This document shows positions 19,156-37,201 of a stretch of 39,258 nt of DNA, piece by piece. Origin of the DNA: a virus; IMG/VR virus record IMGVR_UViG_3300045988_163958, positions 1-39,258 of that record, one strand, 5' to 3'. Each line of letters opens with the position of its first letter. Position 1 is the first letter of the stretch. The notes beneath the pieces are model-generated. The model worked only from the letters and a program-made list of their open reading frames with translations. It was not told where the DNA came from and did not search any database. The translations under genes were made by a program, and so were the position numbers.

Positions 19156-19383
19156 TTTCTCATCTCCTTTTTTTATTGAGATGTTGGATAGGCAGTGTAT
19201 ATCCTTACCTATCCATCTTTTATGCAGTTTTTGTTAAAAGTTTGAACTGCTAACAGCGAAAGGTAGTTTGTGTTATCCTAGGCCACTCCTACCAGGTAGA
19301 ATTATTTAAGTTTAAGGACTTCACATATAAAGCTCCTATACCCAGACAGGCGTACTTTACATCTTCACTTATAACCAGTAAAA

Positions 19384-19460
19384 GGGAATAACAGGATTCG
19401 AACCTGTATAATGCTCTCAAGCAATTGTTTTACCTACCTCGTAAGTTAAACTATATTCCC
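19384..19460 (-). tRNA. tRNA-like element. The acceptor stem and T-arm are perfect; the D and anticodon regions are irregular.
   Basis: The minus strand reads GGGAATA...ACAGG-TTCGAAT-CCTGT-TATTCCC. The acceptor stem is 7/7 paired and the T-loop TTCGAAT is consensus. The D and anticodon arms cannot be folded canonically by hand. One option is a TTAC/GTAA stem with loop GAGGTAG. Confidence 0.45.
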
Positions 19461-31653: not shown

Positions 31654-32667
31654 ATGAAAAATGAGAACGGCAGTGGAAGTGTATATAAGTTAAAAGGTAA
31701 AAGGAGGAAACCATGGATAGTGAGAATTACAACTGGCTATAGTTTGGAAGGTAAGCAATTAAGAAAAACTATAGGAACATATAAGACTAAAAGAGAAGGG
31801 CAGGAAGCTTTATTATCTTATTTAAAAACCCCTGACCTTTTTTCAAATAAGACATTTGAAGAAGTTAAAAATATGTGGTGGGAGAGTTACAAAAAAAAGA
31901 ATGAAAAAGAAACAACACTTATAACTTTAAAAAATAGAGTTAAAATATTGGAACCACTTTTTAAAAAAGAAATAGCTGCTATAAAACTTTTTGAATTGCA
32001 AGAAGTATTCGACAATATAAAATTTTCTTGGAATTTTAAAAATGGAGTAAAAAGTGCGTTAAATATGATATTTGATTTTGCTTTAAAAAATGACTTAATA
32101 AGTACAAATAAAGTAAAATTTATTGAATTAGGAAAAAAAGATAGTGTAGTAGAAAGAAAAATATTTACAAAAGAAGAAATAGAAATTTTGTGGGATAACA
32201 CAGATAAAATTTTTTCTTGCTTTGTTCTAATTCTTATTTATACTGGTATGAGGATAGGTGAACTTTTAAATTTAAAAATATCTGATATAAATATAGAAAA
32301 TAAAACTATACAAATAAGAGAAAGTAAAACAGAAAACGGAATAAGAACTATTCCTATAAATTCTAAAATTTTCCCATTAATAACTAAAAATATGAGTATT
32401 TACCAAGAATATTTTTTAGAAAGAGATAAAGAACCTTTAAATTATAAAATGTTTCTACATTCTTTTAAACTATTATTAAAAGAATTAAAAATACAAAGGC
32501 ACACTATCCATGATACAAGACACACATTCGCAACTTTGTTAAATAATTCTAATGCAAACTCAACTTCTATTGTAAAATTAATAGGACACAGTAGCTTTTC
32601 CACAACAGAAAATACTTATACCCACAAAGATACAGAGGAACTAAGAAAAGCTATAGAGAGTATATAA
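31654..32667 (+). CDS. int: Tyrosine integrase.
   Basis: The C-terminal catalytic motifs are HDTRHTFAT and GHSSFSTTENTYTH. RBS AAGGAGG precedes ATG at 31654, which is preferred over the TTG at 31591. Confidence 0.85.
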   Translation: MKNENGSGSVYKLKGKRRKPWIVRITTGYSLEGKQLRKTIGTYKTKREGQEALLSYLKTPDLFSNKTFEEVKNMWWESYKKKNEKETTLITLKNRVKILEPLFKKEIAAIKLFELQEVFDNIKFSWNFKNGVKSALNMIFDFALKNDLISTNKVKFIELGKKDSVVERKIFTKEEIEILWDNTDKIFSCFVLILIYTGMRIGELLNLKISDINIENKTIQIRESKTENGIRTIPINSKIFPLITKNMSIYQEYFLERDKEPLNYKMFLHSFKLLLKELKIQRHTIHDTRHTFATLLNNSNANSTSIVKLIGHSSFSTTENTYTHKDTEELRKAIESI

Positions 32668-33205
32668 ATTTGTTAGCTATTTGTTGGCTAAAAGAAAAAA
32701 ATAGAAGAAAAAATATGGAATATATAAAATATAAAAATATAAAAATATAAATTTCTCAAGAACTTAGAAAAATAGCTGATTTAATAAAATCATATAAAAG
32801 ATATTTTAGATTCATCTATATATTAATAAAAATAAGATTTTAAGATATTATACAAACGTAAAAATATTAATTTGATAGCTACCTGTTAGCTATGTCAAAA
32901 AAGATGGGCGATCACCTTTTTATGTTAGTATAATTTTTTAAATAAAAATGATATAATATAAAAAAAAGTGGGTGATTATATGAAAAATAAAAAAGAAATT
33001 CCAGAAGAAATTAGGATTCAAATAGAAAAGGATTTTATAAAGTTTATGAATAGTCCTGAGAAAAAAAGATTGATAAAAAATTAAAACATATAAAACTTGA
33101 TAGCCAACATGAAAAATTTTTAAAAGATTTATTTTTTGAATTAGACTTAACTATAATGGAAATTCAAAAATCAAATTTATAGCAGAATAATTAAAAAAGG
33201 TGAAA
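32668..33205. other. AT-rich non-coding region downstream of int, a candidate attP. It holds TTGATAGC / GTTAGCTAT arm-type repeats and an AAATATAA microsatellite.
   Basis: Repeats occur at 32672-32695, 32872-32900 and 33096-33115. The tandem ATAAAAAT repeat is at 32728-32760. Confidence 0.3.
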
Positions 33206-33430
33206 TTAATCACCTTTTAAAATTTTTTCTCTTTCTTCTATTAAAGATTTAAATATCTCTAAATCTTCTAAAGAAGAATGATTTTTAATAAAGTTTTTAC
33301 CAGCACTTTTCATGCTTAGGATTTTTTTCCTTTCTTTTGCACCTGGATTTGCTTCCAGATATCTTTTATTTGCCTCTACTTGTTGTTCATTAGAAGCATA
33401 ACCTCTCCTCTTTCCCATTATGCAATCCAT
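33206..33430 (-). CDS. Hypothetical basic helical protein (74 aa).
   Basis: Second gene of the operon driven by the promoter at 33685-33713. The start overlaps the upstream stop. Confidence 0.4.
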   Translation of the reverse strand: MDCIMGKRRGYASNEQQVEANKRYLEANPGAKERKKILSMKSAGKNFIKNHSSLEDLEIFKSLIEEREKILKGD

Positions 33431-33651
33431 ACATCTTCTATAATGTTATCTTCTACTTTAAATAAAAATTGTGTAGAATTAGGAGTGTTAATATAAGCTA
33501 TGTAATCATAGCCATTATTATTGCTTTCATTTACAATTACTTCATTCACTCCTTCTTCTTCAAAATCTTCAAATGCACAAACTACTTCATTGTAATCAAA
33601 TTCTGCTCCTATAAGGTTGTGTAAATTTCCTAAAACATCATATTTTGTCAT
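33418..33651 (-). CDS. Small acidic protein (77 aa).
   Basis: RBS GGAGG. The sequence MTKYDVLGNLHNLIGAEFDYNEVVCAFEDFEEEGVNEV is strongly acidic. Confidence 0.45.
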   Translation of the reverse strand: MTKYDVLGNLHNLIGAEFDYNEVVCAFEDFEEEGVNEVIVNESNNNGYDYIAYINTPNSTQFLFKVEDNIIEDVWIA

Positions 33652-33684
33652 ATTAAAACCTCCATTTGTTTTTTCTAATAATTT

Positions 33685-33713
33685 ATTTTAACATAATCTC
33701 AAGATTATGTCAA
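33685..33713 (-). promoter_or_regulatory. Promoter TTGACA-N17-TAAAAT with the near-palindromic operator ATAATCTCAAGATTAT in the spacer.
   Basis: Read on the minus strand. It is a near copy of the element at 34071-34099. Confidence 0.5.
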
Positions 33714-33721
33714 TGTTTTTT

Positions 33722-34039
33722 TTAAAATCCTAAAGCTTCTTCCACTTTATATCTAAGTGGAGATTGTCCGTATGCTCTTTTTGCTAATAAATCTACATAA
33801 AATTTTTTAGTTTGGTTTTTAAAATATAGATTTACATATATTCTTTTTTCTCCATATTTTTCCCAATTGTTAGCAGTATAATTCACACCTGCTTCATCTA
33901 AAACAGATTTAACTATATTTAGAGGATTTTTCTTTTCTTCCCAAGCTTGTTTTAAGCCTATAGATAATCTAACTGAATAATTTCCTTCCAAAGTTTTTGC
34001 TATTTGGTGTCCTCTTTTCATTAAATCTCTTTTAGTCAT
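33722..34039 (-). CDS. Hypothetical protein (105 aa).
   Basis: RBS GAGGAGG. It has its own operator-bearing promoter. Confidence 0.45.
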   Translation of the reverse strand: MTKRDLMKRGHQIAKTLEGNYSVRLSIGLKQAWEEKKNPLNIVKSVLDEAGVNYTANNWEKYGEKRIYVNLYFKNQTKKFYVDLLAKRAYGQSPLRYKVEEALGF

Positions 34040-34070
34040 TTTTTATTCCTCCTCTATATTTTATATTTAT

Positions 34071-34099
34071 AATATATCATAATCTTAAGATTATGTCAA
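34071..34099 (-). promoter_or_regulatory. Promoter TTGACA-N17-TATATT with the perfect 16-bp palindromic operator ATAATCTTAAGATTAT in the spacer.
   Basis: Read on the minus strand. Confidence 0.5.
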
Positions 34100-34133
34100 C
34101 AACTTTTTTAAAATATTTTTAAAATAAAAAAAA

Positions 34134-34149
34134 CAGGGATTTCTCCCTG
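34134..34149 (-). terminator. Intrinsic terminator after the His-rich gene.
   Basis: CAGGGATTTCTCCCTG is a perfect hairpin. The minus strand reads T8 after it. Confidence 0.6.
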
Positions 34150-34152
34150 CTC

Positions 34153-34503
34153 TTACATCTTAAATTTACTAATTTTCTGCGATAACTCATGGGCTTCTTC
34201 GATTAAATCTTCATAGAAGCATTTCCATAATTCAGCCATACTATGGTGTTTATGTTCTTCATGCTCATGGTGTTTTTCTGTGTCATAACTTCTTGTTTTA
34301 CTCTCATGTTCTCTCATCATGTTTTGTATCTTCTCATCATCTTTTTGGAACATATCAAGTCTTGTTCTTGCTCTTGTTAAATACCAAGATGCCATATCCA
34401 TATTTTCAGCTTCCTTTTCTTCTTTTGCATACTCATATGCCATTTCAGCATCATTATAGTCATCTTTAAGCATATCTATCATTCTTTCCAATCTTTCTTT
34501 CAT
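34153..34503 (-). CDS. His-rich acidic helical protein (116 aa).
   Basis: RBS AAGGAGAGG. It contains EKHHEHEEHKHH. Confidence 0.45.
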   Translation of the reverse strand: MKERLERMIDMLKDDYNDAEMAYEYAKEEKEAENMDMASWYLTRARTRLDMFQKDDEKIQNMMREHESKTRSYDTEKHHEHEEHKHHSMAELWKCFYEDLIEEAHELSQKISKFKM

Positions 34504-34943
34504 TATTTAGTCACCTCTCCTTTTTTTATACTTGTTTCTACAGCCATTGTTTCTGTAGGTGTAGTTGGAGTATACACAGGAAATACAAAGCTCGTACAAG
34601 GCAAATTACAAGTTCCTACATAGTTTAAAGAAGGAACATCTGTTTTAAATCTTGTTGGATATATTCTCCTATTTCTTATCTGATCGCTATAAACTAAATT
34701 TCCACATTTATTAATTAGTGGGACTTGTGTTGTAGAACTTCCTATAGTTATTACTACTGGAATAGGTGTTGCAGAACTTGGAAGAGTAGTGGCTATTAAT
34801 AAACATACATTTTCATTGTTGTTAAAAGATTGGCTAGGCTGTACATTTAATACAAGTTTTCCTCCTGTTATTGTTGCTGTTGTTACAGTTATTAAATGTC
34901 TGCATCTATTACATCTGCAACTAGCATTTAAATTGCAATTCAT
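34503..34943 (-). CDS. Cys/Thr-rich protein (146 aa).
   Basis: RBS AAGGGGG. The N-terminus is MNCNLNASCRCNRCRH, followed by Thr/Pro-rich tracts. Confidence 0.45.
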   Translation of the reverse strand: MNCNLNASCRCNRCRHLITVTTATITGGKLVLNVQPSQSFNNNENVCLLIATTLPSSATPIPVVITIGSSTTQVPLINKCGNLVYSDQIRNRRIYPTRFKTDVPSLNYVGTCNLPCTSFVFPVYTPTTPTETMAVETSIKKGEVTK

Positions 34944-34968
34944 ATTTTTTACCCCCTTTAATTAAAAA

Positions 34969-34986
34969 GGTGGGAATTATCCCACC
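34969..34986 (-). terminator. Intrinsic terminator after the Gly-rich gene.
   Basis: GGTGGGAATTATCCCACC has a 7-bp perfect stem. The minus strand reads a T-run after it. Confidence 0.55.
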
Positions 34987-35020
34987 CTTAAAGTCACGAC
35001 AATTAGTCGGAATAATTCAA

Positions 35021-35713
35021 CTAGATATTTCCACATCCATTAAATCCACCGCATCCATTACCAAATACTGGTGTTCCCCATGGGTTACAGCTTTGGTATG
35101 CTGGCACTGGTGTAGGTCTAATAGCATTTATAATGTTATTAGATTGTGCTTGTAGAGTTGCAGAAAGTGTTAAATCTTGGTTTCTGTCTCTAAGTTCCTG
35201 AATAGTATTAGCTGTCATCATATCCACGATTCTTTGTGTATTTGCATTTCCAGCAGCTATTAAATCTCTAGTGTTCATGTTAGCATTTGTGATTATATCA
35301 CAGGTGTTCTTAGCATTTTCATATCTAACAGAATCTATATTTCTGTTAGTAGTGCAGCAGCAGCTATCTAGGTTTGAATTTAGATTAGCAAATCCTAAAC
35401 CTATTAGTTCTCTTGTTTGCCCATTTTGTTGAGCCATTGCATAAGTAGAATCACAGATTCCGTTTGCTAGTCCATTTATTCCAGATTCTATAGCTCTATG
35501 TCCATTTTTAAGGTCCTGTAAAGCGAATTGATCTGCCATTAGTTCTCCACCTGCAAATCCTCCAGCTCCGAAGCCATTACGCCCCCAACCAAACATCATA
35601 GCAATGATTAGGAATACTATCCAACCTCCACCTGCTCCAAAACCGAAACCGTCTCCGCCAGCCATTCCAGTTGGCATCACAGGCATTACGCCTTCTGTGC
35701 TAAATCCTGCCAT
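35021..35713 (-). CDS. Gly-rich membrane protein (230 aa) with a Cys/Gly-rich C-terminus.
   Basis: Strong RBS TAGGAGG. The N-terminus GDGFGFGAGGGWIVFLIIAMMFGWGRNGFGAGGFAGG is a TM helix flanked by Gly repeats. The C-terminus is NGCGGFNGCGNI. Confidence 0.5.
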   Translation of the reverse strand: MAGFSTEGVMPVMPTGMAGGDGFGFGAGGGWIVFLIIAMMFGWGRNGFGAGGFAGGELMADQFALQDLKNGHRAIESGINGLANGICDSTYAMAQQNGQTRELIGLGFANLNSNLDSCCCTTNRNIDSVRYENAKNTCDIITNANMNTRDLIAAGNANTQRIVDMMTANTIQELRDRNQDLTLSATLQAQSNNIINAIRPTPVPAYQSCNPWGTPVFGNGCGGFNGCGNI

Positions 35714-35765
35714 AGTTTATACCTCCTATTGTTTTTTTATTTGTAAAACACCCCCGTGTTATTAC

Positions 35766-36017
35766 CTAGTAATTAAATTTTCTTCCTCCGCCTTGAACTG
35801 TTGGCGTTGCTCCTGATCCTACTGGACTACTTGGCTGTATGCTATTAGGGTCTATTCCCCTTTGCTGTAAAATGTTGTTTCTCTGCTCTGGCGTCATTTG
35901 CTGCACCTTTTGCATCATTTCCTGTTGCTGCTGCGGTGTCATTTGCTGCCATTGTTGCATCATCTGTGCTGCTTGTGGCCCTAATGCTTTTTGTAACATC
36001 ATCATCATTGGATTCAT
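35766..36017 (-). CDS. Met/Gln-rich low-complexity protein (83 aa).
   Basis: Strong RBS AAGGAGGT. The sequence begins MNPMMMMLQKALGPQAAQMMQQWQQMTPQQQQEMMQKVQQ. The hairpin AACAC-CCCC-GTGTT follows the gene. Confidence 0.45.
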   Translation of the reverse strand: MNPMMMMLQKALGPQAAQMMQQWQQMTPQQQQEMMQKVQQMTPEQRNNILQQRGIDPNSIQPSSPVGSGATPTVQGGGRKFNY

Positions 36018-36495
36018 AGCCTACCTCCTTAAATCCTTTGCTTTTTAATAGTTCATACATTTTCTTATCAATAATTTTCCAACTTCCATCTTCCGTTATA
36101 ACTTCTCTAGTTATAAGAGATAAAATAGTGTTTTGGTTAGTTGTTACTACCTGGTCTAAATGTCCGCCCTTTCTCTCTTCGTTATACATAATAAATGCTG
36201 TTGCCGAAAATTCAGGTTGCTTATATACAGGTGTAAAAATCACTTGCTGTGGAATATCTTCTCCCCATTCTATACTTCCATACTTTCCATTCTCTGGAAT
36301 TATAAAGGTATCCTTTCCACACTTACTACATTTAAAATGAAAGCCTATAGGAATTTTAGGTTTCCATTCATAACTATAACCATTTAAAATTGGATTCTGC
36401 TTGTTTTGTGGGTTCATATAGTCCACAGAATTAAAAATCATTTCGTTAATGTTATCATTTCCACAATGTGGACAAGCCATTTTTTCAATATTCAT
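35845..36495 (-). CDS. Zinc-ribbon-containing protein (216 aa as an open frame). Its last 57 codons overlap the Met/Gln-rich gene out of frame.
   Basis: RBS GAGGTGAG. The zinc-ribbon motifs are CPHCG...CSKCG. The C-terminal tail is low complexity. Confidence 0.45.
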   Translation of the reverse strand: MNIEKMACPHCGNDNINEMIFNSVDYMNPQNKQNPILNGYSYEWKPKIPIGFHFKCSKCGKDTFIIPENGKYGSIEWGEDIPQQVIFTPVYKQPEFSATAFIMYNEERKGGHLDQVVTTNQNTILSLITREVITEDGSWKIIDKKMYELLKSKGFKEVGYESNDDDVTKSIRATSSTDDATMAANDTAAATGNDAKGAANDARAEKQHFTAKGNRP

Positions 36496-36822
36496 TTTTT
36501 CTCACCTCAAAGATTTATTTCTGCCATTTTTTCACCTTTGACTTTGATAACTATATTTTATCTTTTATAGCAAAATAAATCTAAAAATATACCTAGATAA
36601 TACCTTATAATATATTTATTTGGTTGTAAAAAATCAACTTTTTATTGACAGAGTAATATAAATGTGTTACCATTAATTAGAAGCACAAACCCATTGGGTT
36701 ACGTTTAATAAGGTTTTAAAAGCTCTGATGATATAAGCACTCACTTGTTGGGTGCTTGTTTCATATATATCAAGAGGTCAGAGCCTTGGTATATAGCAGA
36801 CCTTATTAAATGGAGGTGCTGA

Positions 36823-36906
36823 ATGGATTTTCTAAGAGAATTAGCCTTGCAGGTGCTTGCCGGTATACTAGCTAGTATCATCTGCAAATGGTTAGATAGG
36901 AAATAG
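36823..36906 (+). CDS. 27-aa Ldr/Fst-family type I toxin-like peptide.
   Basis: RBS GGAGGTG. The sequence is MDFLRELALQVLAGILASIICKWLDRK. The tract AGILAS-I...W..RK recalls E. coli LdrD, recalled from memory as ...APVIAGILASMIVNWLNKRK. A 140-nt GC-rich leader precedes the gene and a terminator follows it. Confidence 0.45.
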   Translation: MDFLRELALQVLAGILASIICKWLDRK

Positions 36907-36920
36907 CATCACACCTCGCC

Positions 36921-36946
36921 CAATGGGGCTTTTTTATTTTATAGGT
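36921..36946 (+). terminator. Intrinsic terminator after the toxin-like ORF.
   Basis: GCCC-AATG-GGGC is followed by TTTTTTATTTT. Confidence 0.45.
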
Positions 36947-36950
36947 ATCA

Positions 36951-36975
36951 AAAAAGAGGGATTTAATCCCTCTTT
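36951..36975 (-). terminator. Intrinsic terminator after the RHH gene.
   Basis: AAAAGAGGGATTTAATCCCTCTTTT has a 10-bp stem. The minus strand reads T6 after it. Confidence 0.55.
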
Positions 36976-36976
36976 T

Positions 36977-37201
36977 CTATTTTTCTATGCTTTTTGATAT
37001 AGAGTTTAAAACTTCTACTGCCTGTTCTAATACTCCTTTTTTCCCATTTTTATATTCATCTAAATATCTTCTTAATGCTTCGTTTATTATATAAGTTTGT
37101 GTTAATCCAAAGCTTTCTGAAGTATCTTTTAATCTTTCTAATTCTTCGGCTATTTCTTTGGTAGTATTGAAGCTAATTTTTATATATTCTTTTTGTTTCA
37201 T
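36977..37201 (-). CDS. Ribbon-helix-helix (CopG/Arc-like) DNA-binding protein.
   Basis: The beta strand is KISFNTT and the helices are KEIAEELERL and TQTYIINEALRRYL. Confidence 0.5.
   Translation of the reverse strand: MKQKEYIKISFNTTKEIAEELERLKDTSESFGLTQTYIINEALRRYLDEYKNGKKGVLEQAVEVLNSISKSIEK

What the first reader, a model, noticed from the sequence alone, without database searches (positions are those of the whole stretch)
33206..36495. Accessory island of compositionally extreme proteins between the lysis cassette and int, each expressed from its own unit.
Eight minus-strand genes encode unusual products: a zinc-ribbon protein, a Met/Gln-rich 83-aa protein (MMMM, QQQQ), a 230-aa Gly-repeat TM protein with a CCC and GCGGFNGCG tail, a Cys/Thr-rich protein (N-terminus CRCNRCR), a His-rich protein (HHEHEEHKHH), and three small proteins. 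Almost every gene has a strong RBS. Most are separated by perfect intrinsic terminators (34134-34149, 34969-34986, 35747-35760) or by consensus promoters. That pattern suggests individually and probably highly expressed cargo, likely produced in the lysogen, rather than phage housekeeping genes. None resembles a standard phage function I can name. The Met/His/Cys-rich set could be metal-binding or surface, matrix or bacteriocin-like cargo.
Basis: partly seen in the sequence, partly recalled or inferred. Interest (0 to 1): 0.75.

Follow-up and report, generated by a model that had tools for sequence, protein, structure and literature searches.

The report
Conserved phage operon, function unknown
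Five of the eight odd-looking genes are not separate cargo but one conserved operon, found next to the lysis genes in hundreds of gut phage genomes from very different host groups, that encodes a cysteine-rich protein with a membrane-anchor-like segment and a small partner shaped like the tip of a phage fibre, and nobody appears to have described what it does.

Summary
The eight minus-strand ORFs and their unusual compositions are real. The window is a temperate Mu-like-baseplate myovirus of Fusobacterium varium/ulcerans.

The "island" has two parts.

(1) P8, P7, P6, P5 and P4 (36495-34153) form one transcription unit. It has one promoter, overlapping or coupled genes, an internal hairpin and a strong final terminator.
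- Gene order is conserved. In 113 distinct related loci, P6 is followed by either a P5-type protein (47 loci) or a BclA/C1q-like protein (59 loci), never both. It is preceded by a Met/Gln-rich P7-type gene in 77 loci.
- A terminator-like hairpin after P6 is present in 67 of 110 loci.
- The module usually lies just after the lysis cassette. An oppositely oriented integrase gene follows it in 28 of 147 loci.
- P6 (CCC in 144 of 147 homologues) and P5 (more than 6,000 relatives) have no Pfam family and no informative name.
- The P5 model is a beta-sandwich closest to tail-fibre knob domains.

(2) P3 and P2-P1 are small genes behind two identical promoter-operator units. P3 is missing from a 95%-identical relative.

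Function is unresolved. My best guess is a complex anchored by P6 with an exchangeable knob partner. Independent metal-binding or bacteriocin cargo is not supported.

Side finding: an Ldr-like type I toxin locus at 36645-36940 (+).

The parts
36609..36637 (-). Putative sigma-70-type promoter of the five-gene module (TTGATT-17-TATATT). It lies 110 nt upstream of P8, downstream of the terminator of the preceding operon.
   Evidence: 9/12 match. It lies inside the block that is 95% conserved with L008 (36679-34061). No better promoter lies between here and 34150. This is a consensus match only and has not been tested.
35845..36495 (-). P8, a zinc-ribbon protein. The conserved core is about 160 aa (36001-36495). 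The C-terminal ~50 aa are an unconserved out-of-frame read-through over P7.
   Evidence: C8, C11, C56 and C59 are invariant. The family has only 11 representatives among 1.8 billion proteins. It is not homologous to the Gln-rich 'A' protein that fills this slot in 102 of 113 loci.
35766..36017 (-). P7, an 83-aa Met/Gln-rich protein with NPxxM-type repeats, a conserved GID motif and a C-terminal (K/R)FNY. It has a strong RBS (AAGGAGG).
   Evidence: It matches the HMM of the 74-aa 'B' family at E 4e-4 and aligns with that family. The family sits immediately upstream of P6 in 77 of 113 loci.
35743..35765 (-). Weak hairpin between P7 and P6 (5-bp stem, -7.1 kcal/mol, no clear U tract).
   Evidence: Terminator-like hairpins at this junction occur in only 3 of 60 related loci, so it is probably not a functional terminator.
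35021..35713 (-). P6, the hallmark protein (230 aa). In order it has a short acidic N-tail with the conserved motif MPVxP, a Gly-rich region, a short hydrophobic segment (W31-G44), a helical region with invariant CCC (118-120) plus C87 and C138, a Pro-rich stretch, and a C-terminal C(S/N)P(Y/W)...GCG(C) tail.
   Evidence: It matches phrog_16490 (unknown function) at 2.4e-22. It has 916 homologues, more than 510 loci in IMG/VR, 73 loci in GTDB genomes, no Pfam family and no PDB relative. The AlphaFold2 model has low confidence (pLDDT 47) and is mostly helical.
34962..34988 (-). GC-rich hairpin (GGGUGGGA-UAAU-UCCCACC) plus UUUUU between P6 and P5. It is a conserved intra-operon terminator or attenuator, or possibly an mRNA-stabilising 3' structure.
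   Evidence: -13.7 to -16.6 kcal/mol, z -2.9. An equivalent hairpin plus U tract, with a different sequence, is present after P6 in 67 of 110 related loci, against 3 of 60 at the preceding junction.
34503..34943 (-). P5, a 146-aa Cys/Thr-rich beta-sandwich protein with an N-terminal Cys cluster (family consensus CxxxCxxC). It is a stand-alone, fibre-knob-like partner of P6.
34153..34503 (-). P4, a 116-aa helical protein rich in Glu, Met and His (HHEHEEHKHH). Its start overlaps the P5 stop (TAATG). It is the last gene of the module.
   Evidence: Homologues occupy the same position in L004-L006 (31.6% identity, 2e-10). It is not related to the ferritin-like protein that fills this slot elsewhere.
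34129..34154 (-). Strong intrinsic terminator that ends the module.
   Evidence: 11-bp stem, -15.3 kcal/mol, z -4.8, followed by U8.
34071..34099 (-). Promoter-operator unit 1: TTGACA-17-TATATT with TG, containing the 16-bp palindrome ATAATCTTAAGATTAT. It drives P3.
   Evidence: the 22-nt sequence occurs twice, 0 expected by chance.
33722..34039 (-). P3, a 105-aa protein and a variable cassette lying between the two promoter-operator repeats.
   Evidence: It is absent from the 95-98% identical relative L008, whose alignment joins exactly at the repeats. It matches phrog_12732 at 4e-6. Its AcrIIA3_fam match is weak (21.7 bits against a cut-off of 70).
33685..33713 (-). Promoter-operator unit 2: TTGACA-17-TAAAAT with TG and the palindrome ATAATCTTGAGATTAT. 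It drives P2-P1.
33206..33651 (-). P2 (77 aa, 33418-33651) and P1 (70-74 aa). The P1 start is probably coupled to the P2 stop at 33418. The pair ends at a bidirectional terminator at 33195-33218.
   Evidence: P1 matches phrog_2277 (unknown function) at 5.7e-14. Both genes are conserved in L008 at 98%.

Best explanation
Shown.
- Genes P8-P7-P6-P5-P4 (36495-34153, minus strand) form one self-contained operon of a Fusobacterium myovirus.
- The operon is a local variant of a widespread, undescribed phage gene module.
- The module core is a small Met/Gln-rich protein (P7 type), then the CCC protein P6, then a terminator-like hairpin, then one of two mutually exclusive small beta-sandwich proteins. 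These are the P5 type, which resembles fibre knobs, or a BclA/C1q-like type.
- The first and last slots are variable. Here they hold the zinc-ribbon P8 and the His-rich P4. Elsewhere they hold a Gln-rich coiled-coil protein and a ferritin-like, DUF7841 or hydrophobic-segment/coiled-coil protein.
- A small sigma-70 region-4 regulator often lies upstream.

Inferred.
- P6 is anchored in the cytoplasmic membrane by its short hydrophobic segment.
- P6 presents a helical, Cys-rich region that recruits the knob-like partner through cysteine chemistry, either disulfide bonds or a shared metal site.
- The Met/Gln-rich P7 may act as a holdase for the hydrophobic, Gly-rich end of P6.
- The hairpin after P6 sets a high P6-to-partner expression ratio.
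- None of the partners has a signal peptide, so the complex would be built on the cytoplasmic side and exposed only at lysis.

Guessed function (about 0.25). The module is an envelope- or membrane-directed accessory device with an exchangeable binding head. It could exclude superinfecting phage, mask receptors on debris, or act on the membrane at lysis. It is probably not a virion building block or a lysogen metal-binding cargo.

P3 and P2-P1 are separate small moron-type genes under a shared palindromic operator.
For: Synteny.
- All five genes are found in order in L004-L006 and L161 (P8 62.5%, P7 50%, P6 67%, P5 53%, P4 32% identity). Four of them are found in L007 and L009.
- Census of 113 distinct loci: 'A' 102, P7 type 77, BclA-like 59 or P5 type 47 (106 in total, never both), sigma region 4 in 59, a last-slot family in 82. 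All lie on the same strand.
- The knob type switches at least 20 times on the P6 tree, so the two types are interchangeable.
- The hairpin after P6 is conserved in structure but not in sequence (67 of 110 loci against 3 of 60).

Single transcription unit in the window. There is one promoter-like site upstream and none inside. P8/P7 and P5/P4 overlap. There is one strong terminator at the end.

Context in related loci. An amidase and tail genes lie upstream. An integrase or helicase gene on the opposite strand lies downstream. In crAss-like cr53_1 the module directly follows holin and LysB-like genes.

Folds. The P5 model resembles fibre knobs. The alternative partner matches the BclA C-terminal domain (Pfam 3e-9; PDB 3twi, 1wck and 9h38 at 5e-6 to 5e-5).

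Cysteines. CCC is present in 144 of 147 P6 homologues. The C-terminal GCGC-type tail is conserved whichever partner is present. The partners are Cys-rich, with medians of 8 (P5 type) and 3 (BclA-like).

No signal peptides are visible in P8, P7, P5 or P4 by direct reading.

P3 as a cassette.
Against: - No experiment or characterised homologue exists, so the function is a guess.
- The P6 model is unreliable (pLDDT 47).
- The P6 hydrophobic core is only 11-14 residues long. Its flanking charges do not fix a topology, so membrane anchoring itself is an inference.
- No partner-specific signature was found in P6. This gives no positive support for direct P6-knob contact.
- The P7-holdase idea rests on composition and on two faint STI1-HOP_DP matches (E 0.03).
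- Conservation in phages with no integrase gene near the module fits a lytic-cycle role. It does not distinguish exclusion, lysis or virion roles.
- The position after the lysis genes is also where unrelated morons accumulate.
Confidence: 0.45

Rival explanations
1. Virion accessory fibre or decoration. P6 would be a helical shaft, P5 or the C1q-like protein would be its distal knob, and P8 and P7 would be assembly factors. All would be made late, assembled in the cytoplasm and carried on the particle.
For: - The P5 fold is closest to tail-fibre distal domains.
- BclA/C1q-like knobs tip collagen-like fibres.
- The module is co-oriented with the tail genes and follows them.
- Frequent swapping of the knob type resembles the mosaicism of receptor-binding proteins.
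- No signal peptides are present.
- A hairpin after an abundant structural gene is common in late operons (established knowledge).
Against: - In the window the module is separated from the tail genes by the lysis cassette, a ribbon-helix-helix gene, a terminator and a toxin locus. It has its own promoter.
- In C. perfringens phage XP41-N3 it lies among early-type genes, between an antirepressor gene and Gam/Erf.
- The same module occurs in myo-, sipho-, podo- and crAss-like genomes. That would need a universal docking site.
- Fibre shafts do not usually carry a hydrophobic, Gly-rich segment or many cysteines.
Confidence: 0.2
2. Metal or redox-handling cargo. The zinc ribbon, Met-rich, Cys-rich and His-rich proteins, with a ferritin-like protein in relatives, would bind or move Cu, Fe or Zn. 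This would benefit the anaerobic host or the phage.
For: - The P8 zinc ribbon has four invariant Cys.
- P7 is Met-rich. The MPVxP motif in the P6 N-tail is conserved. P4 has the HHEHEEHKHH tract.
- P6 has the CCC motif and a GCGC-type tail. The P5 family has an N-terminal CxxxCxxC.
- The last slot holds a ferritin-like protein in 40 of 113 loci (PDB ferritins at 2.7e-6).
- The matching phage records with a stated source or host are faecal samples or gut bacteria. Most of the genome hits are gut or faecal MAGs.
Against: - None of these proteins belongs to a known metal-transport or storage family.
- The canonical ExxH of ferritin is not clearly kept in the ferritin-like relatives.
- P4 is unrelated to them.
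- The zinc-ribbon and His-rich proteins occupy the variable slots, and P8 is rare (11 representatives). The most 'metallic' features are therefore not the conserved core.
- Knob-like beta-sandwich partners have no obvious role in metal handling.
Confidence: 0.12
3. Lysis accessory acting on membranes. The Gly/Phe-rich hydrophobic N-terminal segment of P6 followed by long helices would work like a fusion peptide plus coiled coil. It would be a spanin-like or membrane-disrupting factor that completes or times lysis.
For: - The module lies next to lysis genes in very different phages. It follows the lysozyme operon here, holin and LysB-like genes in crAss-like cr53_1, and an amidase in many loci.
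- P6 has an N-terminal hydrophobic segment followed by helices.
- Depositors annotated crAss homologues as 'spike protein/glycoprotein'.
- One last-slot family has a hydrophobic segment plus a coiled coil.
Against: - Candidate lysis partners already lie upstream in the window, including a hydrophobic-segment/coiled-coil protein with a weak Rz-like match.
- cr53_1 already has a LysB-like gene.
- The module is present in phages of monoderm C. perfringens. Contigs binned with Mycoplasmatota also carry it. Neither host type has an outer membrane to fuse.
- No partner has a lipobox.
- Five genes with knob-like and ferritin-like components are unlike any known lysis cassette.
Confidence: 0.1
4. Independent lysogenic-conversion genes. 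Each gene would be its own highly expressed unit, made in the lysogen, and unrelated to the others.
For: - The block occupies the moron slot between lysis and int.
- RBSs are strong.
- Three good hairpin terminators and two consensus promoters are present.
- G+C is atypical.
- P3 is truly variable.
Against: - The order of five genes is conserved across prophages and phages of several phyla.
- No promoter lies inside P8-P4, and two junctions are coupled.
- The hairpin between P6 and P5 is itself a conserved module feature.
- The module occurs in phage genomes where it is not next to an integrase gene.
Confidence: 0.05
5. A phage-borne defence or anti-defence system with a membrane-bound effector or sensor (P6) and a variable target-recognition subunit (P5 or the C1q-like protein).
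For: - It is a compact autonomous operon in a known hotspot for such systems.
- It often has its own regulator.
- It has an exchangeable recognition-type subunit.
- It has one protein with a membrane-anchor-like segment.
- It is present in both temperate and apparently virulent phages.
Against: - No PADLOC model matches any protein.
- No enzymatic or nucleotide-binding domains are present.
- Sequence conservation of P6 is very high (motif CCCETNRNIDxVRYENAKNTCDI). This is unusual for components in an arms race.
Confidence: 0.08

Closest known systems
BclA C-terminal domain / C1q-like knobs of exosporium and endospore-appendage tip fibrils (PF18573; PDB 1WCK, 3TWI, 9H38; PMC12357932)
   Same: In 59 of 113 related loci the gene after P6 is a stand-alone protein matching this domain. 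Like ENA and exosporium components, the module proteins lack signal peptides. Cys motifs recur: CC in the knob and CCC in P6. The ENA paper reports CC motifs in the protomers of S- and L-type appendages and in the N-terminal connector of L-BclA.
Distal knob domains of phage tail fibres (e.g. Pseudomonas phage Pa193 gp47, PDB 9B45; T7-type and collagen-like fibre proteins in BFVD)
   Different: P5 is a free-standing 146-aa protein with an N-terminal Cys cluster, not the C-terminus of a long fibre. The similarity is moderate and there is no sequence signal. In the window the gene lies outside the tail module.
Morons / lysogenic-conversion cassettes between the lysis genes and the attachment site of temperate phages
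   Same: Position, own promoter and terminator, and atypical G+C. P3 and P2-P1 fit this class well.
   Different: P8-P4 is a five-gene operon with conserved order that is also found where no integrase gene lies nearby. It is much more widely conserved than the neighbouring lysis genes: 95% against 84% identity to L008.
Two-component spanins (Rz/Rz1) and membrane-anchored superinfection-exclusion proteins (knowledge-based comparison)
   Same: An N-terminal hydrophobic anchor followed by a helical domain with conserved cysteines, encoded next to the lysis genes.
   Different: No outer-membrane lipoprotein partner is present. The module occurs in phages of monoderm hosts. It has five genes. No sequence similarity was found.
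Ldr/Fst-type type I toxin-antitoxin loci (side finding only, 36645-36940 +)
   Same: A 27-aa hydrophobic peptide with a basic C-terminus matches Pfam Ldr_toxin at E 6e-6. It lies within a 260-nt highly structured mRNA that has its own promoter and terminator.
   Different: The score is 26.6 bits against a cut-off of 27. No antitoxin RNA was identified. The locus is absent from the close relative L008.

Membership tests
BclA_C / C1q-like knob (PF18573), tested for P5 | Sequence match to the family profile | tested here: not met
   P5 has no Pfam hit at E<=1. hhalign of the P5 family against the BclA-like 'D' family gives probability 1.5%. A PDB profile search with the P5 family returns only a LIM protein at E 0.087.
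BclA_C / C1q-like knob (PF18573), tested for P5 | TNF/C1q-type jelly-roll fold | tested here: not met
BclA_C / C1q-like knob, tested for the alternative partner in related loci | Sequence match to the family profile and to solved BclA structures | tested here: met
   The family consensus scores 37.1 bits (cut-off 38), E 3e-9. The family profile hits 3twi, 2z5w, 2r6q, 1wck and 9h38 at 5e-6 to 9e-5.
Phage tail-fibre distal knob | Fold similarity to solved or predicted fibre tips | tested here: inconclusive
Phage tail-fibre distal knob | C-terminal domain of a long fibre protein encoded in the tail module | tested here: not met
   P5 is a separate 146-aa ORF. It is separated from the tail genes by the lysis cassette, a ribbon-helix-helix gene and a toxin locus.
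Two-component spanin (Rz/Rz1) | i-spanin with an N-terminal transmembrane segment and a periplasmic coiled coil | tested here: inconclusive
   P6 has an 11-14-residue hydrophobic core followed by predicted helices. The model has low confidence and the topology is undetermined.
Two-component spanin (Rz/Rz1) | Adjacent or embedded outer-membrane lipoprotein partner with a lipobox | tested here: not met
   No lipobox or signal peptide is visible in P8, P7, P5 or P4 by direct reading.
Two-component spanin (Rz/Rz1) | Restricted to phages of diderm hosts | tested here: not met
   P6 and P5 homologues occur in Clostridium perfringens phages CPD1, XP41-N3, PMQ04 and others.
Moron / lysogenic-conversion cassette | Lies between the late/lysis genes and int, with its own promoter and terminator | tested here: met
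   This holds for the operon as a whole and for P3 and P2-P1, but not for each gene separately.
Moron / lysogenic-conversion cassette | Variable presence among closely related phages | tested here: inconclusive
   Met for P3, which is absent from L008. Not met for P8-P4, which are 95% conserved in L008 and syntenic in distant phages.
Moron / lysogenic-conversion cassette | Expressed from the repressed prophage | not testable with these tools
   This needs RNA-seq of a Fusobacterium varium or F. ulcerans lysogen.
Zinc ribbon (P8) | Two CxxC pairs conserved across homologues | tested here: met
   C8, C11, C56 and C59 are invariant in 13 sequences. Pfam zinc-ribbon models score below their cut-offs.
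Ferritin-like four-helix bundle (P4) | Profile similarity to the ferritin-like protein that fills the same slot elsewhere | tested here: not met
   hhalign probability 0.2%. The last-slot family E195 itself matches ferritins at 2.7e-6.
Endospore appendage (ENA) subunits | Sequence or fold similarity to solved ENA subunit structures | tested here: not met
Anti-CRISPR AcrIIA3 (P3) | NCBIfam NF033948 score above its cut-off | tested here: not met
   21.7 bits against a cut-off of 70, E 1.6e-4.
Known anti-phage defence systems | Match to any PADLOC model | tested here: not met
   No match better than E 0.017 for any of the eight proteins.
Type I toxin Ldr/Fst (side finding) | Small hydrophobic peptide matching PF13940, carried in a structured mRNA | tested here: inconclusive
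   26.6 bits against a cut-off of 27, E 6e-6. The RNA fold has z -7.5. No antitoxin RNA was found.

The most novel reading that the evidence does not exclude
The P7-P6-knob operon may be a previously undescribed phage system, found so far mainly in gut and faecal phage sequences across several host phyla. In this reading a protein with an invariant triple cysteine and a membrane-anchor-like segment is loaded in the cytoplasm with one of two interchangeable knob-type heads, fibre-tip-like or C1q-like. Loading would use cysteine-mediated cross-links or a shared metal site. The complex would act as a new kind of envelope-directed device, for exclusion, receptor masking or a lysis-released appendage. 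Both hallmark families, P6 and the P5 family of more than 6,000 members, would then be founding members of new protein families.
Probability: 0.3. Interest if true: 0.8.

Novelty: categorically new. Interest (0 to 1): 0.66.

Why it matters
If the module is a functional system, it is one of the more common conserved multi-gene units in gut phage genomes that still has no name.
- More than 510 loci were found in one viral collection.
- Relatives occur in prophage-like contigs assigned to Firmicutes, Bacteroidota, Fusobacteriota, Spirochaetota, Fibrobacterota and Melainabacteria.
- Its two hallmark proteins have no Pfam family.

The layout suggests a modular recognition device that phages keep and shuffle: a conserved anchor protein, an interchangeable knob, a conserved internal attenuator and often a dedicated regulator. 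Working out what it binds could bear on superinfection exclusion, lysis or particle stability in gut phages, including crAss-like phages.

For annotation, this work turns eight "hypothetical proteins" into a recognisable operon plus a separate set of small moron-type genes. It also flags a probable type I toxin locus beside it.

Tried and rejected
- Family searches. Pfam, NCBIfam, PHROGs and PADLOC scans of all eight proteins gave no named function. There were only unknown-function PHROGs for P1, P3 and P6, and sub-threshold zinc-ribbon and AcrIIA3 hits.
- DNA search. The island against GenBank phages gave only a 70-nt match inside P6.
- P6 structure. The prediction was too poor to use (pLDDT 47), so no fold search was run on it. 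The afdb50 library was unavailable.
- P5 homologous to the BclA-like partner: rejected.
- P8 homologous to the usual first-slot protein 'A': rejected.
- P4 homologous to the ferritin-like last-slot protein: rejected.
- P7 as an STI1-type domain: only two faint matches, and the best PDB hit is a protein named 'Gogy', uninformative about function.
- Programmed frameshift joining P8 to P7: rejected. P7 has its own strong RBS and a conserved C-terminus, the P8 tail is unconserved, and in L009 P8 simply stops at the P7 start.
- Partner-specific residues in P6 as evidence of contact: none found.
- Rfam. There was no family at gathering score other than one tRNA. Sub-threshold hits in 36450-37000 look like terminator matches.
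- Literature. Searches for DUF7841, for BclA with phage, for ferritin-like with prophage, and for Fusobacterium varium prophage found nothing about this module.
- P8 in GenBank phages: no match.

Full report
**What the window is.** The window has about 29% G+C. It encodes a tape-measure protein, Baseplate_J and a Mu gp48-like protein. It also encodes a GH24 phage lysozyme (PF00959, 7e-43) and a tyrosine integrase (PF00589, 1e-31). The exact P6 and lysozyme sequences fall in 90%-identity clusters with proteins named from Fusobacterium varium and F. ulcerans. These lie on chromosomes of 3.5-3.8 Mb and on a 39,330-bp viral contig. The window is therefore a temperate myovirus of Fusobacterium, a diderm gut anaerobe. 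Read on the minus strand, the region runs as follows: lysozyme (38490-38053), two proteins with hydrophobic segments, a ribbon-helix-helix protein (37201-36977), a 480-nt gap, the eight genes of the finding (36495-33206), an AT-rich gap, and then int on the other strand (31654-32667).

**Checking the observation.** Four corrections apply.
- The 216-aa P8 ORF overlaps P7 by 173 nt. Aligned with relatives, the P8 core ends near residue 160. Its tail is an unconserved reading of the Met/Gln-rich gene in another frame. P7 keeps a conserved C-terminal (K/R)FNY, and in L009 P8 stops at the P7 ATG.
- Two of the three named hairpins are good and one is weak.
- Promoter-like sites are no more frequent than in shuffled sequence. 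The two 11/12 sites upstream of P3 and P2 share an identical 22-nt sequence containing a 16-bp palindrome, which is not expected by chance.
- P5/P4 and P2/P1 overlap stop-to-start.

**The island has two parts.** A relative from IMG/VR, L008, aligns to 36679-34061 at 95% and to 33728-33192 at 98%. It lacks P3, and its alignment joins exactly at the duplicated promoter-operator. The lysis region of the same relative is only 84% identical. P3 is therefore a variable cassette. P2-P1 are small genes behind the same operator. P8-P4 is a block that is better conserved than its surroundings.

**P8-P4 is a conserved operon.**
- P6 has 916 detectable homologues. It also matches 44 GenBank phage records, including C. 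perfringens phages and crAss-like phages.
- The gene after the P6 homologue in C. perfringens phages is a P5 homologue.
- Related prophages L004-L006 and L161 carry all five genes in order. They sit next to host genes that include a FadL-type outer-membrane protein. L007, a podovirus-like contig, and L009 carry four of the five.
- I clustered the neighbours of 147 distinct P6 genes and then searched with family HMMs. Among the 113 loci with enough flanking sequence:
  - a ~155-aa Gln-rich, coiled-coil protein 'A' lies at -2 in 102 loci;
  - a ~74-aa Met/Gln-rich protein 'B' lies at -1 in 77 loci, and P7 matches its HMM at 4e-4 and aligns with it;
  - at +1 there is either a BclA_C-like protein 'D' (59 loci) or a P5-type protein (47 loci), never both;
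  - a sigma-70 region-4 protein lies at -3 in 59 loci;
  - at +2 or +3 there is a ferritin-like protein (40 loci), a DUF7841 protein (33 loci) or a small protein with a hydrophobic segment and a coiled coil (34 loci).
- All of these genes are on the same strand as P6.
- In the window's variant the zinc-ribbon P8 replaces 'A'. P8 is not homologous to 'A' and has only 11 representatives among 1.8 billion proteins. The His-rich P4 fills the last slot.

**A conserved internal hairpin.** A GC-rich hairpin followed by a U tract lies between P6 and the knob gene in 67 of 110 loci. Its sequence differs from lineage to lineage. At the junction before P6 such a hairpin occurs in only 3 of 60 loci. Because the module has a single upstream promoter-like site and coupled genes, I read the hairpin as an attenuator or mRNA-end stabiliser that favours P6 over the downstream genes. 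I do not read it as a boundary between separate units.

**Genomic context elsewhere.**
- Upstream of the module are Dit, minor-tail and tail-fibre genes and an amidase endolysin.
- Downstream are a tyrosine integrase (21 loci) or serine integrase (7 loci) on the opposite strand, or replication genes.
- In crAss-like cr53_1 the module directly follows holin and LysB-like genes.
- In C. perfringens phage XP41-N3 it lies 3.5 kb after the amidase and holin genes, between an antirepressor gene and Gam/Erf.

The window's position between the lysis genes and int is therefore the common one. The module is not confined to loci with an adjacent integrase gene.

**The proteins.**
- P6 has an acidic N-tail with the conserved motif MPVxP. 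A Gly-rich region then flanks a hydrophobic core of only 11-14 residues. A helical region follows, carrying the near-invariant motif CCCETNRNIDxVRYENAKNTCDI...NTQRI.D..TQN.IQ.LRD. The protein ends in a Pro-rich stretch and a C(S/N)PY...GCGC tail. It has no Pfam family and no PDB relative. Its model is poor.
- The alternative partner 'D' matches the BclA C-terminal domain in Pfam and in the PDB. This includes 9H38, the tip domain of F-type endospore appendages.
- On a neighbour-joining tree of P6 the partner type changes at least 20 times. The two knob types therefore behave as interchangeable cassettes.
- No P6 column tracks partner type.
- The ferritin-like identity of one last-slot family is supported by PDB ferritins at 2.7e-6. 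P4 is unrelated to it.

**Interpretation.**
- Shown: the operon structure, its wide conservation, the exchangeable knob slot, the conserved hairpin and the cysteine signatures.
- Inferred: P6 is membrane-anchored. It recruits the knob through cysteine chemistry. P7 shields the hydrophobic end of P6. The complex is assembled on the cytoplasmic side, because no partner has a signal peptide.
- The biological role is a guess. I favour an envelope- or membrane-directed accessory function with a swappable binding head. I put a virion-fibre role next. Metal handling, a lysis accessory and defence or anti-defence follow as weaker rivals.
It does fit P3 and P2-P1.

**Comparison with known systems.** Nothing in Pfam, NCBIfam, PHROGs (beyond "unknown function"), PADLOC, the PDB or the searchable literature describes this module. 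It resembles BclA/C1q knobs, tail-fibre tips, spanins and morons in single features. It fails defining features of each of them (see the membership table).

**Side findings.**
- On the plus strand at 36645-36940 there is a promoter (TTGACA-17-TACCAT). It is followed by a 260-nt RNA that folds far better than shuffled sequence (-98.2 kcal/mol, z -7.5). A Shine-Dalgarno sequence precedes a 27-aa ORF, MDFLRELALQVLAGILASIICKWLDRK (36823-36906). The ORF matches Pfam Ldr_toxin at 6e-6, just under the cut-off. A terminator follows.
- This looks like a type I toxin locus. It is replaced by different sequence in L008.

Noticed in passing
window 36645-36940 (+): Probable type I toxin locus. Promoter TTGACA-17-TACCAT (36645-36673). 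A 260-nt RNA with MFE -98.2 kcal/mol, z -7.5. SD GGAGGTG followed by a 27-aa hydrophobic ORF at 36823-36906 (MDFLRELALQVLAGILASIICKWLDRK) that matches Pfam Ldr_toxin at E 6e-6 (26.6 bits, cut-off 27). Terminator at 36914-36940. No antitoxin RNA was identified. The region is not conserved in the 95%-identical relative L008.
   Followed up: partly
window 34078-34099 and 33692-33713 (-): Two copies of an identical 22-nt promoter-operator (TTGACATAATCTT[A/G]AGATTATG) containing a 16-bp palindrome. They flank P3, and relative L008 has one copy and no P3. The repeats look like the recombination points of a gene cassette under a common repressor. The repressor was not identified.
   Followed up: partly
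window 33722-34039 (-): P3 has a weak, sub-threshold similarity to the anti-CRISPR family AcrIIA3 (NF033948, E 1.6e-4, 21.7 bits against 70) that covers most of the model. Its only phage hits are hypothetical proteins of Aeribacillus and Parageobacillus phages.
   Followed up: partly
window 35845-36017 (-): The P8 reading frame stays open for 173 nt across the Met/Gln-rich P7 gene in another frame, giving P8 a low-complexity tail rich in Asp, Ala, Thr and Asn. The same overlap occurs in L004 (170 nt) and L007 (155 nt) but not in L009. It probably reflects a lack of stop codons in that frame of ATG/CAA-rich sequence.
   Followed up: yes
related loci, e.g. L162 11362-11961, L074 7344-7949: In 40 of 113 related loci the last slot of the module encodes a ~195-aa protein whose profile matches ferritins (5ls9 at 2.7e-6; 3kx9, 1s3q). 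The canonical ExxH is not clearly retained.
   Followed up: partly
BFVD entry A0A8S5LXP6 (CrAss-like virus sp. ctRQZ5, 294 aa): This protein, annotated as DUF7841-containing, also has a P5-like domain (TM 0.53 to the P5 model). It fuses the knob slot and one of the last-slot families into one polypeptide, which hints that the two act together.
   Followed up: no
window 36977-37201 (-): A small ribbon-helix-helix protein (phrog_3180 Arc-like repressor at 1.5e-5; weak RelB-like antitoxin match) ends the lysis operon just upstream of the toxin locus and the module. It could be a regulator of the downstream units.
   Followed up: no
L004 2530-3474, L161 4832-5776: In the related Fusobacterium-type prophages a 314-aa tyrosine recombinase sits directly after the tail-fibre-like genes (Baseplate_J, Gp10_C), well inside the prophage. 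It may be a tail-fibre invertase rather than the integrase.
   Followed up: no
window 19383-19460 (-): A tRNA gene inside the phage genome (Rfam RF00005, 41.8 bits).
   Followed up: no
window 35001-36000: G+C is 40% here against about 29% for the window. This coincides with the Gly/Ala/Gln-rich P6 and P7 genes. It could reflect amino-acid composition or foreign origin.
   Followed up: no
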